Source: Dendrobates tinctorius
Taxonomy: Eukaryota
DNA: 64,000 nt
Reading direction: 5' to 3'
NCBI RefSeq assembly: GCF_039654945.1
Contig: NW_027361788.1
Location: forward strand, 44,640,001-44,704,000
Shown: positions 16,801 through 19,800 of the stretch, in pieces
Position numbering within the stretch: the first letter of the stretch is position 1
Layout of the letters: each line of letters starts with the position of its first letter
Position numbers: made by a program

Positions 16801-19800
16801 CAACTTAACACCTAATCCCCTGAAGCCATTGTCCCCTTCAAACAAAAAACAATATCCCTCAAATGCTCGACTTTCTGTCCCACCCGATAATTCATGTCTG
16901 CGACAAATGGTTTTCAACCTTTATGGTGCTATGATGTGATCGTCCAGGCTGAGAACCATTGGTGAATGAGCTGCTGTCAGCTCAGCTTCAGTGAGTAGCT
17001 GTGATGTCATCGAGGTTACTGCAGGTCACAGAGGCTGCATCCCCAGTCGGGCCAGTGAACTGCGGTGACCTCAGTGAGAATTTCTCACGGTGAACTCACT
17101 AAGCTCAGCACTGAACCGTGAGACTTTTTCTCACTGTGCTAGCAGTGACCTTAATGAAATCATCACAGTCCACCATTGCAGCAAATCATTCTCCCCAGAG
17201 CTTCAGCGTGAGCAATCGCCTCCAGCCACCAGTCATGCTGATGAACAAATGTCACACAGAAGGATTATAGAATATTGTATTTTTTATTTTTACAGGGGAC
17301 AATTTCTTCAGGGGATTAGGTGTTAAGGGGAGTATAATGTGATTTTTTTTTTTTTTTTATTCTTAATTTTACATTTGACTACAACGCTCAACATCTTCCC
17401 CTGCTCGCGCTGATCGCGAGGAAAGCAGGCAATAATGATGTGAGCTGTCTATAGCACCCCGGCGCCTGAGAACAGTGGAAACTGTGCTGGCTTTTCTCAG
17501 GCAGCGGTACGTGTCATAAACCAATGCGTCACACAGTTGCCAGTGCCACGCGTATGAAACACACGGACATCAATGCTACTGGCTTTTCCAGTACCGGAAA
17601 TAACAGGACGTGTGACAGAGCCCTCAGGGCATTTATTAGTGGACACATTTTAACCCCTTGAAGGGACTGCCCACTACCAGACCACCCCTTATTAATGGGG
17701 GCATTTTTGATCTCGCTGTGTAGAATTTATTGTAAATAGATGAAGGTTCCGCATTTTATTTAGTCCCATTAGTTTTTTTTGTTTGTTTTTTTTAAAGGAA
17801 TGTATATTACAACTTTTTTTAACATATTTTGATACTGTGTCACTCCCAGATGTGAACAGATGATGAATGACATCCATGATCCTGTAATACACCTGAAGGC
17901 GCCTCACACTCAGCCTCATGCATAATACCAGACACTGACATAAGGAGGCGCTTTCCCAGCAGCCACCAATCAGATATCAGCTTCTATTCCTCAGGGTGGG
18001 TTACACAGATGAGAGCTGGAATCTGATTGGTCACTACTATGACTCCCTATAACCACCAGCAGGAGGCGCAGTGACGTTACCTTGTCGTACATATTGATCT
18101 CGTCATGGTCGTCGTGCTCGTGTTTGGACTGGCTGCCATGACTGACCGTGACCGGGGTTGTGGCCTCAGCCCGAGGACCAGTATGAAGTCTGTATACCGG
18201 GGCCGTCCTCAAGAACCGCGTAGCCCCGGACAACCTCAGCGCCCGCAGACACAAGGGCATCGCCATATTTGTTCAGCCCCGAAAGGAGACTCCGAAAACA
18301 CCGGAAGAGGCGGGCTCTTGTCATAATCTACCAATCAGCATTACGGTGGCGCTAACCGTTGGCAAATGTTAACCAATAAAAATCCTTATAGGGAGTCGCT
18401 AAAAAGGGGCGGGACTTACTTCTCGCTAGACCAATCCACGACCAATGTGAAGGCTTAGCCAATCAAATTCGTGACTTTAGGCGCCATCTTTACTTTGGGC
18501 AGCAGTTTATATAAAAGGCGAGTGACAGCTAGGTAACTATGGAAACAGTGCGAGTCGGGTGAAGATGGCGGATCTGGGTGAGCACCACCGCGGAGAGGTT
18601 CTCAGTTACATGCGGTTCGCGCAGTGTAAGCGGCTGCTGCGGCTGAAGAGTGTGGCGTCCTGCTTCCAGGATGTGCGGGAGAGCCGGCTGGTGGAGGACA
18701 CGTACACGGCGGAGGAGGTGGCCGAGCTGCTGAGCGGCCTGGAGGCGGTGGTGCTGAGCGAGCTCGAGCTGGAGCTCATCAACTCTGCGCACACCAATGT
18801 GCTGCTGCTGCAGCAGCTCTTCTCCCAGGCCCAACACTGGCACCTGCGGCTGCACACCGACATCTCCGAGCTGGAGAACCGCCAGCTGCTGGAGCAGGTG
18901 GCCGAGCTGGAGAAGAGCCAGGAGCTGGGGCCCTCAGCCAAGGGCCCCCAGAGCAGCAAGCCCAGACTGGCCCCTCTGAGCGACGGCGGCTCCGCAGACC
19001 TCCTCCACAATCAGATCGGCCGACTGCAGGAAGAGAACGACAAGCTCCGCGCCAGACTGCGCACCCTAGAGAGCCAGGCCACTGCCGCCCTGGACCACAA
19101 GCGCAGCGCCGAGAAGGCCCTCCAAGACCTGCAGGACCAGGCCCAGCACAACTCCCTGGACCCCCGCCACCTGGAGGACCCCCGCCACCTGGAGGACACC
19201 GTGGCCAGCCTCAGGCTGGAATTCCAGAAGACCCTGGGTGACCACACAGCCAACCAGAGGGGCCTGGAGGAGAGCCTGACCACGACCAAGCACGAGCTTC
19301 TGCGGGTCAATGAGCAGCTGCTGATGGCAGAGAAGGAGCTGGACAAGAAGTTCCAGGAGACCGGGGCCTACCGCAACATGAAGGACATCCTGAGCCGCAA
19401 GAACGAGCAGATCAAGGAGCTGCGCCGGAGATTGTGCAAGTACGAGCCCGAAGACTGAGCCGGGCCGTGACCAGACATTGTGACCAATGGTACCGATCCT
19501 TCTTGTGCGGGTCAGCACGTCAATGACAATAGTCTAGAAATGATCCCCGCTTAGAGACTTCTGCTAATCGCCATTCCCAAGCTCACCGACATCTCCAGCC
19601 TCTCCTGGTGGCTGTCACGGCATGATGGGAATTTTAGTTAAGCCACACGACTATGACCAGAGAATTCTTTTGTAAAATTGTTGAATACTGAGACAGCCCA
19701 AAACACTGCGACCAGCCCTGTTGGTGCCTTCAAAGCCACAGGTTAGAGGACAACTTGCTGATTCCTGGTGGTCCGACCACTGGGACTTTCACTGATCCCG

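What the first reader, a model, noticed from the sequence alone, without database searches (positions are those of the whole stretch)
18565..19458. Intronless LZTFL1 (BBS17) occupying the NDUFB11 bidirectional promoter
Seen: a full-length, intact single-exon ORF, CpG-rich throughout, with no visible poly(A) remnant or TSD, 298 bp from the NDUFB11 ATG. It has an in-frame 18-nt duplication (DPRHLE x2, 19159-19194). Known: mammalian LZTFL1 is multi-exon and autosomal (3p21), and the mammalian head-to-head partner of NDUFB11 is RBM10. Inference: an old functional retrogene that captured a promoter and may have replaced its parent gene.
Basis: partly seen in the sequence, partly recalled or inferred. 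Interest (0 to 1): 0.68.

Follow-up and report, generated by a model that had tools for sequence, protein, structure and literature searches.

The report
Intronless frog LZTFL1 beside NDUFB11
A poison-frog relative carries its cilia-trafficking gene LZTFL1 (BBS17) as one intron-free, very G+C-rich exon placed head-to-head with the NDUFB11 promoter, most likely an old retrocopy that took over from the original spliced gene in the large "modern frog" clade.

Summary
Window 18565-19458 (+) is an intact 297-codon single-exon ORF with a full-length match to the LZTFL1 family (Pfam Leu_zip, E 2.9e-104). It lies 298 bp head-to-head from NDUFB11 exon 1. A perfect 18-nt tandem duplication sits at 19159-19194. 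No poly(A) remnant or target-site duplication is visible.

One correction: the ORF is G+C-rich throughout (GC3 0.90), but the CpG island covers only its first ~240 bp.

The window comes from a dendrobatoid frog. All 16 neobatrachian LZTFL1 proteins in my tree form one clade (100/100) on the longest branch (0.56 changes per site). All are shifted toward amino acids with G+C-rich codons. They are still constrained at the same columns as ordinary LZTFL1.

No ordinary-type LZTFL1 from any neobatrachian appears among the 120 best relatives of a spadefoot-toad LZTFL1.

Best reading: an "orphan" retrogene that replaced its spliced parent at or before the neobatrachian ancestor and uses the NDUFB11 CpG/CCAAT promoter region. 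This is a known kind of event; this case was not found in print.

Not shown here: expression, gene structure and synteny in other frogs, and absence of a parent in this genome.

The parts
18565..19458 (+). LZTFL1 (BBS17) coding sequence, single exon, 297 codons plus TGA
   Evidence: Pfam Leu_zip 1-275/275, E 2.9e-104. 89% identical to Anomaloglossus LZTFL1.
19159..19194 (+). Perfect in-frame 18-nt tandem duplication (DPRHLE x2, residues 199-210) at the hinge between the two C-terminal helices
   Evidence: TRF period 18, 100% matches. The AF2 low-confidence loop is 196-205, between helices 142-198 and 206-292. Only one unit is present in the Ranitomeya model and none in Anomaloglossus.
18267..18564 (.). 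298-bp spacer between the two divergent ATGs; putative shared promoter
   Evidence: Five CCAAT boxes (18331, 18373, 18431, 18442, 18459), the densest cluster in the window. GC box at 18407, CCGGAAG at 18301, TATAAA at 18510, AAGATGGCGG spanning the LZTFL1 ATG. CpG o/e 0.98. The motif names are recalled consensus sequences, not tested binding sites.
18001..18800 (.). CpG island covering NDUFB11 exon 1, the spacer and the first ~240 bp of the LZTFL1 ORF
   Evidence: 200-bp windows with CpG o/e 0.79-1.06.
18081..18266 (-). NDUFB11 coding exon 1 (62 codons, GTAACG donor at 18080-18075)
   Evidence: Identity rests on exons 2 and 3.
3227..3355 (-). NDUFB11 exon 2 (boundaries approximate, within a few bases)
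   Evidence: Pfam ESSS PF10183, E 3.2e-15. Located.
944..1069 (-). NDUFB11 exon 3 with stop codon (5' boundary approximate)
   Evidence: Pfam ESSS, E 3.7e-8. Located.
37079..37829 (+). Two TIMM17B exons (37079-37168 and 37698-37829): the next recognisable gene downstream of LZTFL1, used as synteny context
   Evidence: Pfam Tim17. The exon is 100% identical to Ranitomeya, Sphenodon and Petromyzon Tim17-B, against 87-89% for the Tim17-A rows.

Best explanation
This is the working LZTFL1 gene of a dendrobatoid frog, and it is an 'orphan' retrogene.

Proposed history (inferred):
1. A processed LZTFL1 mRNA was reverse-transcribed and inserted about 300 bp upstream of NDUFB11, in the NDUFB11/TIMM17B neighbourhood.
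2. This happened at or before the common ancestor of neobatrachian frogs.
3. The retrocopy became expressed from the NDUFB11 CpG-island, CCAAT-rich promoter region acting in both directions.
4. It took over the job of the spliced parent, which was then lost.
5. Being intron-free, it drifted or was selected to very high synonymous G+C. That dragged the protein through a burst of change (K to R, I to L and the like) without destroying it.

Expected function (inferred by homology): the protein should still bind BBS9 through its C-terminal coiled coil and restrain BBSome entry into cilia through its N-terminal region, as shown for mammalian LZTFL1.

Shown here: the intact intron-free full-length gene, its position and the promoter anatomy, the clade-wide divergent G+C-shifted form, shared site-wise constraint, and the absence of ordinary-type proteins in neobatrachians.
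For: Gene and position.
- Contiguous full-length Leu_zip ORF.
- It lies 298 bp head-to-head with NDUFB11 exon 1, inside one CpG island that holds the densest CCAAT cluster of the window.

Composition.
- GC3 is 0.90, against 0.47-0.74 for NDUFB11, TIMM17B and TAFA exons in the same window.
- Functional mammalian retrogenes are reported to be G+C-richer than their spliced parents (PMC7181179, passages).
- The GARP/FYMINK amino-acid ratio is 0.95-2.44 in 16 of 16 neobatrachians and 0.44-0.63 in 13 of 13 other vertebrates.

Phylogeny.
- In the tree of 37 named proteins, Neobatrachia is one clade (100/100) on a stem of 0.56 changes per column. The median tip branch is 0.084.

Constraint.
- Per-column entropy in neobatrachians against the others gives Spearman 0.52, p 1e-21. 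77 of 296 columns are invariant and identical in both sets.
- Lengths of 280-299 aa are kept across 16 species.

No ordinary-type copy in neobatrachians.
- The 120 best relatives of Pelobates LZTFL1 (at least 69% identity) include sharks at 73-74% identity and every non-neobatrachian frog listed. None is from a neobatrachian.
- The 18 named neobatrachian species each show only the divergent type.

Synteny proxy.
- Rhinoderma LZTFL1 and Tim17-B are both reported on a contig of 126,013,862 bp.
- In 7 of 7 non-neobatrachian species listed for both genes the contig lengths differ.

Contiguity in a relative.
- The Ranitomeya model reads straight through the homologous DNA in a shifted frame, so that locus is contiguous too.

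Functional features.
- The basic pair K22-R23 is kept, with R23 invariant in 30 of 30 sequences.
- The AF2 model is all-helical.
- Function is mapped in PMC3207910 (passages).

Precedent.
- Orphan retrogenes and use of bidirectional promoters are described in PMC4772013 (passages) and PMC5803294 (abstract).
Against: - No poly(A) tract, polyadenylation signal within 2 kb, or target-site duplication supports retroposition directly. Loss of these is expected after a long time, but their absence is not evidence for the model.
- I could not see any other frog's gene structure or gene order. The intron-free state is shown only for this window and, in part, for Ranitomeya.
- The contig-length match in Rhinoderma is a proxy from one species.
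- The neobatrachian clade did not sit beside the other frogs in the free tree. It sat beside caecilians (82/87). The frog placement is merely not rejected: AU p 0.10 for all frogs together, 0.20 for a position beside Pelobatoidea.
- The G+C shift could come from biased gene conversion in a spliced gene.
- Two relatives have imperfect models: the Ranitomeya model is frameshifted and the Bufo gargarizans entry is labelled 'LOW QUALITY PROTEIN'. Either could be an assembly error or real damage.
- There are no expression data.
- A TATA box 55 bp upstream of the ATG could mean the gene has its own unidirectional core promoter rather than true sharing.
Confidence: 0.68

Rival explanations
1. Younger retrocopy of an already divergent spliced gene. 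The burst of protein change and the G+C shift happened in a normal spliced LZTFL1 on the neobatrachian stem, for example after a move into a G+C-rich, recombination-prone region. The intron-free copy arose only later, in dendrobatoids or hyloids, with or without loss of that parent.
For: Intron-free structure is shown only for the window and, over about 245 codons, for Ranitomeya. No call showed gene structure in ranoids or Mixophyes. Biased gene conversion can raise GC3 in spliced genes (established knowledge).
Against: - The window protein is the nearest relative (89%) of the single LZTFL1 annotated in Anomaloglossus and nests inside the clade as an ordinary orthologue.
- No second LZTFL1 of either type is listed for any of the 18 neobatrachian species.
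- 0 of the 18 named neobatrachian rows carries an isoform label, whereas Pelobates, Ambystoma and Paroedura do. This is a weak hint.
- Rhinoderma LZTFL1 shares a contig length with TIMM17B.
Confidence: 0.17
2. Intron loss in place. The ancestral gene lost all coding introns by recombination with its own cDNA at the original locus. Later rearrangement brought it next to NDUFB11, or the two genes were already neighbours in frogs.
For: There are no retroposition scars. I could not establish the ancestral amphibian position of LZTFL1 with these tools.
Against: - The window holds NDUFB11 and TIMM17B, both on Xp11 in human (recalled). LZTFL1 is on human 3p21.3, according to a title in the reference list seen.
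- In 7 of 7 non-neobatrachian species with both genes listed, LZTFL1 and Tim17-B sit on contigs of different length.
- None of the recalled 3p21 neighbours was seen among the Pfam hits in the window.
Confidence: 0.1
3. Processed pseudogene or annotation look-alike with no function.
For: Retrocopies usually decay. Two relatives have flawed gene models.
Against: - The ORF is an intact 297 codons with a strong start context.
- 16 species keep full-length proteins.
- Variable and invariant columns coincide with those of ordinary LZTFL1 (Spearman 0.52, p 1e-21).
- It is the only LZTFL1 type found in the clade.
Confidence: 0.03

Closest known systems
Orphan retrogenes / retrogene replacement (Ciomborowska et al. 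2013, PMC3548309; Carelli et al. 2016, PMC4772013)
   Same: A single-exon copy of a normally multi-exon gene, under constraint, with no parent of the ordinary type in the lineage, and associated with a CpG-island promoter. Carelli et al. report CpG promoters for 9 of 10 orphan retrogenes (passage).
   Different: This case is in frogs, not mammals, and involves LZTFL1, which neither the listing nor the passages I saw mention. Parent loss is inferred here from protein sets of related species, not from a genome search.
Amphioxus SYCP1 retrogene sharing the CHIC bidirectional promoter (Garstang & Ferrier 2018, PMC5803294; abstract only)
   Same: A single-coding-exon retrogene that replaced a multi-exon parent and sits head-to-head with an unrelated gene whose promoter it is thought to have co-opted.
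   Different: There the promoter sharing and expression were shown by experiment. Here both are inferred from a 298-bp spacer, a common CpG island and CCAAT boxes.
Canonical vertebrate LZTFL1/BBS17 (Seo et al. 2011, PMC3207910)
   Same: Same family over the full length (Pfam 1-275/275). It is all-helical, the conserved N-terminal basic pair is kept, and the C-terminal coiled-coil half is kept.
   Different: It has no coding introns and GC3 of 0.90. It is only 59-65% identical to other tetrapod LZTFL1, although Pelobates is 73-74% identical to shark LZTFL1. There are 25 alignment columns whose residues do not overlap between neobatrachians and the rest. A 6-residue duplication lies in the hinge.
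G+C enrichment of functional intron-free genes (Mordstein et al. 2020, PMC7181179)
   Same: The retrogene is much G+C-richer at synonymous sites than the neighbouring spliced genes, and the protein composition is shifted accordingly.
   Different: That study is on human and mouse. The parental GC3 could not be measured here because no nucleotide sequences of other species were available.

Membership tests
LZTFL1 / Pfam Leu_zip (PF15294) | Full-length match to the family profile above the curated cut-off | tested here: met
   348.9 bits against a cut-off of 28.2; residues 18-292 match profile positions 1-275 of 275.
LZTFL1 / Pfam Leu_zip (PF15294) | Mostly alpha-helical protein with a coiled coil in the C-terminal half (the BBS9-binding half, aa 145-299 in human) | tested here: met
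   The AF2 model has helices 2-39, 49-120, 142-198 and 206-292, mean pLDDT 78.6. The description of the family comes from PMC3207910. Coiled-coil pairing itself was not modelled.
LZTFL1 / Pfam Leu_zip (PF15294) | Conserved basic pair in the N-terminal 70 residues, needed for regulatory activity | tested here: inconclusive
   K22-R23 is present and R23 is invariant in 30 of 30 sequences. Which KR pair Seo et al. mutated is shown only in their Figure S2, which I could not see.
LZTFL1 / Pfam Leu_zip (PF15294) | Binds BBS9 and limits ciliary entry of the BBSome | not testable with these tools
   No frog BBS9 was on hand and no complex job was run.
Retrogene (processed, RNA-derived gene copy) | All coding introns of the parent are absent | tested here: met
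   The coding sequence is one uninterrupted ORF covering the whole profile. That the parent type is multi-exon is recalled. It is hinted at only by splice-isoform names in outgroups.
Retrogene (processed, RNA-derived gene copy) | Poly(A) remnant at the 3' end | tested here: not met
   No A-rich tract in 19459-22000 apart from two 9-10-nt A runs, at 20279 and 21598. Loss is expected for an old copy.
Retrogene (processed, RNA-derived gene copy) | Flanking target-site duplication | tested here: not met
   None of the 15 direct-repeat families flanks the ORF.
Retrogene (processed, RNA-derived gene copy) | Location unrelated to the parental locus | tested here: inconclusive
   The neighbours are NDUFB11 and TIMM17B. 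In 7 of 7 outgroup species LZTFL1 and Tim17-B are on contigs of different length, and in 1 of 1 neobatrachian (Rhinoderma) on contigs of the same length. This is a proxy only; no gene order was seen.
Orphan retrogene | No functional parent in the same lineage | tested here: inconclusive
   0 neobatrachian proteins appear among the 120 best relatives of Pelobates LZTFL1. The genome of the window itself could not be searched.
Orphan retrogene | Purifying selection on the coding sequence | tested here: met
   Protein-level proxy: Spearman 0.52 (p 1e-21) between the column entropies of neobatrachians and others, 77 shared invariant columns, and intact length in 16 species. dN/dS is not computable without orthologous DNA.
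Bidirectional promoter gene pair | Head-to-head genes less than 1 kb apart within one CpG island | tested here: met
   298 bp between the ATGs; CpG o/e 0.79-1.06 over 18001-18800.
Bidirectional promoter gene pair | Divergent transcription start sites and co-expression | not testable with these tools
   No transcript data were available.

The most novel reading that the evidence does not exclude
One retroposition on the stem of Neobatrachia (the great majority of living frog species) replaced the ciliopathy gene LZTFL1/BBS17 with an intron-free copy wired to the promoter of a mitochondrial complex-I gene. Loss of introns then forced a rise of synonymous G+C to about 90%. That in turn rewrote about a third of the protein (stem branch 0.56 changes per site) while BBSome regulation was kept. 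This would be a clade-wide natural experiment, outside mammals, on the idea that intron-free genes need high G+C. It would also show how far composition pressure can push a conserved ciliary regulator.
Probability: 0.5. Interest if true: 0.6.

Novelty: new member of a known kind. Interest (0 to 1): 0.45.

Why it matters
- LZTFL1 is a Bardet-Biedl syndrome gene that is slow-evolving elsewhere: a spadefoot toad and sharks are 73-74% identical. If the largest frog clade runs on a retrocopy with a borrowed promoter, it offers a dated, clade-wide example of retrogene replacement in amphibians, where such cases are little described.
- It gives a non-mammalian test of the link between intron loss and G+C enrichment.
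- It is a warning for frog annotation and orthology pipelines. The neobatrachian proteins are pulled away from the other frogs in the tree, and G+C-rich homopolymer runs produce frameshifted models.
- It predicts coupled expression of a ciliary regulator and a complex-I subunit.

Tried and rejected
- Recognising NDUFB11 from exon 1 alone failed: Pfam gave 0 families and PDB sequences gave nothing below E 0.37. The gene was confirmed through exons 2 and 3 instead.
I used stop-to-stop ORFs instead.
- Search for RBM10-type or 3p21-type neighbours:
  - 108 of the 115 ORFs of 95 aa or more in the window were scanned. The 7 that overlap the LZTFL1 ORF were dropped. The hits were transposon domains, Tim17 and TAFA only.
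  - 140 ORFs of 55-94 aa between 10.5 and 37.6 kb gave 0 families.
  - ORFs of 55-94 aa outside that range were not scanned, apart from the two NDUFB11 exons. Exons shorter than 55 codons would be missed.
- PDB could not tell Tim17-A from Tim17-B because only yeast TIM17 matched.
- Literature:
  - 'LZTFL1' + 'retrogene' returned 3 papers, judged irrelevant from their titles and abstract openings.
  - 'LZTFL1' + 'intronless' returned 0.
  - 'NDUFB11' + 'RBM10' + 'bidirectional promoter' returned 0.
  - Among papers holding at least two of Neobatrachia and four retrogene terms, the top-ranked row held all five terms: the VGP preprint PMC13320880. It has 0 occurrences of LZTFL1.
- Full-length LZTFL1 proteins on Logan-derived contigs of 1.5-1.9 kb (unnamed rows) might be transcripts. 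For an intron-free gene they could equally be genomic, so I do not count them as expression evidence and did not use them.
- Pseudogene reading: rejected on the constraint evidence.
- Joined NDUFB11 and TIMM17B models were not built.
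Full report
WHAT IS THERE

Window 18565-19458 (+) is an uninterrupted ORF of 297 codons ending in TGA. Pfam's Leu_zip family (PF15294, the LZTFL1 family) matches residues 18-292 to profile positions 1-275 of 275, with E 2.9e-104. The entire conserved protein is therefore coded by contiguous DNA.

The start codon has A at -3 and G at +4. An in-frame TGA lies 42 nt upstream. A 7-codon out-of-frame upstream ORF (ATG at 18539) ends 2 nt before the start (read).

Tandem Repeats Finder confirms the 18-nt duplication: 19158-19197, period 18, 100% matches. 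It gives DPRHLE twice, at residues 199-210.

No polyadenylation signal, A-rich tract or flanking direct repeat is present.

THE NEIGHBOUR

The minus-strand ORF beginning at 18266 could not be named by itself. It ends at a GTAACG donor. Two further minus-strand ORFs, about 14.7 kb and 17 kb away, carry the ESSS/NDUFB11 domain, with E 3.2e-15 and 3.7e-8.

NDUFB11 thus has coding exons at 18081-18266, about 3227-3355 and about 944-1069. I searched the exons one by one and left the joined model out.

COMPOSITION

The ORF is 64.8% G+C, with 70%, 35% and 90% at codon positions 1, 2 and 3. Exons of NDUFB11, TIMM17B and a TAFA gene in the same window have GC3 of 0.47-0.74.

CpG observed/expected is near 1 only from 18001 to 18800. 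That stretch covers NDUFB11 exon 1, the spacer and the first ~240 bp of the ORF. The value drops to 0.33-0.56 in the rest of the ORF. So the gene is G+C-rich throughout, but the CpG island is a promoter island shared by the two 5' ends.

The spacer holds five CCAAT boxes within 133 bp. This is the densest cluster in the window: 5 per 200 bp, against a window mean of 2.2 per kb on both strands. It also holds a GC box, a CCGGAAG motif, a TATAAA 55 bp before the ATG, and AAGATGGCGG across the ATG. The motif names are recalled consensus sequences, and binding was not tested.

WHOSE GENE IS IT

The best relatives of the window protein are listed below.

| Group | Identity to the window protein |
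|---|---|
| Ranitomeya imitator | 95% over the 69% that is in frame |
| Anomaloglossus | 89% |
| Other hyloid frogs | 70-84% |
| Mixophyes | 72% |
| Ranoid frogs | 62-72% |
| Mammals | about 63-66% |
| Non-neobatrachian frogs | 59-64% |

The window is therefore from a dendrobatoid frog. It is not human.

The Ranitomeya model departs from the window protein at the C-run inside the repeat. It then follows the window's +2 frame. That locus is therefore contiguous as well. It has one copy of the 18-nt unit, and its frameshift is of the homopolymer kind that assemblies often get wrong. Anomaloglossus lacks the duplication too. The duplication is therefore young.

In an AlphaFold2 model (mean pLDDT 78.6, pTM 0.34) the duplication lies at the low-confidence hinge 196-205, between helices 142-198 and 206-292. 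This is the most indel-rich part of the alignment.

A CLADE-WIDE DIVERGENT FORM

I aligned 30 proteins and built a tree of 37 named proteins (IQ-TREE, LG+C20+F+G4).

Rows left out of the tree:
- all unnamed rows;
- the frameshifted Ranitomeya model;
- Lithobates pipiens;
- the partial Staurois protein;
- most of the many mammal, bird and fish rows.

Results:
- The 16 neobatrachians form one clade with 100/100 support on a stem of 0.56 changes per column. This is the longest branch of the tree. The median tip is 0.084, and the next longest inner branches are 0.20-0.21.
- The clade is drawn next to caecilians (82/87) rather than next to the other frogs. This is what a long branch tends to do.
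- Trees that hold all frogs together, or hold Neobatrachia with Pelobatoidea, are not rejected (AU p 0.10 and 0.20).
- The ratio of amino acids with G+C-rich codons (G, A, R, P) to those with A+T-rich codons (F, Y, M, I, N, K) is 0.95-2.44 in 16 of 16 neobatrachians and 0.44-0.63 in 13 of 13 other vertebrates. The high G+C state seen in the window's DNA is thus probably shared by the whole clade.
- The proteins are still constrained. Column entropies in neobatrachians and in the others correlate (Spearman 0.52, p 1e-21; 296 columns).
- 77 columns are invariant and identical in both sets. 25 columns have non-overlapping residues between the two sets.

NO ORDINARY COPY IN NEOBATRACHIANS

Using Pelobates LZTFL1 as the query, the 120 best of 775 hits (at least 69% identity) include every non-neobatrachian frog listed. 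They also include salamanders, caecilians, amniotes, ray-finned fishes and sharks at 73-74% identity. None is from a neobatrachian. The 18 named neobatrachian species each show only the divergent type.

This supports replacement of the parent at the level of annotated proteins. It does not rule out unannotated remnants, and it says nothing direct about the genome of the window.

POSITION

- The next recognisable gene on the plus side is TIMM17B. Its exon at 37698-37829 is 100% identical to Ranitomeya Tim17-B, against 87-89% for the Tim17-A rows.
- Between 19.5 and 37 kb I found only Tc1/mariner and Ty3-type fragments. I found no RBM10-like domain. Short exons would escape this scan.
- As a proxy for synteny, Rhinoderma LZTFL1 and Tim17-B are both listed on a contig of 126,013,862 bp.
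- In 7 of 7 non-neobatrachian species that appear in both lists the contig lengths differ. These are Zalophus, Gopherus flavomarginatus, Ornithorhynchus, Tachyglossus, Scleropages, Xiphophorus hellerii and Gambusia.
- The Ranitomeya rows come from different assemblies and are uninformative.
- Human LZTFL1 at 3p21.3 is supported only by a title in a reference list. The X-linkage of NDUFB11 and TIMM17B, and the NDUFB11-RBM10 pairing, are recalled.

MECHANISM

The simplest account is retroposition of a processed LZTFL1 mRNA into the NDUFB11 promoter region, expression through that CpG/CCAAT promoter, functional take-over, and loss of the parent. Each step has published precedent:
- Head-to-head retrocopies co-expressed with their neighbours, and orphan retrogenes mostly tied to CpG promoters (PMC4772013, passages).
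- Amphioxus SYCP1 with the CHIC promoter (PMC5803294, abstract).
- Functional retrogenes are G+C-richer than their parents, with a median GC4 gain of 11.5% (n = 49). Intron-free genes seem to need high G+C for lasting expression (PMC7181179, passages).

The G+C rise accounts for the direction of the amino-acid changes and for much of the long stem.

The protein should act like mammalian LZTFL1. There, the C-terminal half (aa 145-299) binds BBS9. The N-terminal 70 residues, with a conserved KR pair, restrain entry of the BBSome into cilia (PMC3207910, passages). K22-R23 is kept in the window protein.

WHAT IS INFERRED, NOT SHOWN

- the retroposition event itself;
- its date;
- promoter sharing;
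- expression;
- BBS9 binding;
- absence of a spliced parent in this genome.

Rival readings are a younger retrocopy of an already divergent spliced gene (0.17), intron loss in place (0.10) and a pseudogene (0.03).

NOVELTY

The kind of event is known. Four paper searches and one look-up inside the VGP preprint found no description of an intron-free or retroposed LZTFL1. Paper supplements were closed, so lists of amphibian retrocopies there could hold it.

Gene structure and synteny in other frogs therefore stayed unchecked.

I rate it a new member of a known kind, of moderate interest.

Noticed in passing
window 1090-1746: Tandem array of a 34-bp unit, 19.3 copies, 95% matches, inside NDUFB11 intron 2 just upstream of exon 3. 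It creates a ladder of 32-codon ORFs.
   Followed up: partly
window 6802-7863 (-): A 354-codon open frame for a Tc1/mariner (Sleeping Beauty-like) transposase with HTH_SB, HTH_Tnp_Tc3_2 and DDE_3 domains, inside NDUFB11 intron 1. It is possibly an intact copy. Degraded copies lie at 29462-30536 (-), 39209-39968 (+), 43325-43645 (-) and 58422-59333 (-).
   Followed up: no
window 25230-27655 (-): Ty3/gypsy-type remnant between LZTFL1 and TIMM17B, made of integrase zinc-binding and core pieces followed by a SCAN / Ty3-capsid-like ORF. A reverse-transcriptase fragment lies at 46403-46849 (+).
   Followed up: no
window 9386-10433: G+C-rich stretch (0.64; CpG o/e 0.77) that is open in several frames on both strands. 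The plus-strand and minus-strand translations share long near-identical peptides, so it is a large inverted repeat. It holds 20-76-bp tandem repeats at 9674-9819 and has no Pfam family. It lies in NDUFB11 intron 1. One frame is by coincidence also 297 codons long.
   Followed up: partly
window 50098-50244 and 50907-51050 (-): Two exons of a TAFA (FAM19A) chemokine-like gene (Pfam TAFA, E 2.9e-18 and 5.4e-20). The paralogue was not determined, because PDB sequences gave no match.
   Followed up: partly
window 37079-37168 and 37698-37829 (+): TIMM17B exons about 18 kb downstream of LZTFL1. NDUFB11 and TIMM17B are thus about 19 kb apart here, with LZTFL1 between them. No RBM10-like domain was seen in between.
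   Followed up: partly
window 29066-29260: A run of 195 N (assembly gap or masked stretch) beside a Tc1/mariner fragment. It was left as it is.
   Followed up: no
window 18539-18562 (+): A 7-codon upstream ORF (ATG at 18539, TGA at 18560-18562) ends 2 nt before the LZTFL1 start. Whether it is in the mRNA depends on the unknown transcription start. TATAAA is at 18510.
   Followed up: no
relatives: P0013 (Ranitomeya imitator), P0003 (Bufo gargarizans): The Ranitomeya LZTFL1 model is frameshifted at the C-run of the repeat region, and the Bufo entry is flagged LOW QUALITY PROTEIN. G+C-rich homopolymer runs in this gene may be error-prone in long-read assemblies, or the gene may really be damaged in some species.
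   Followed up: partly
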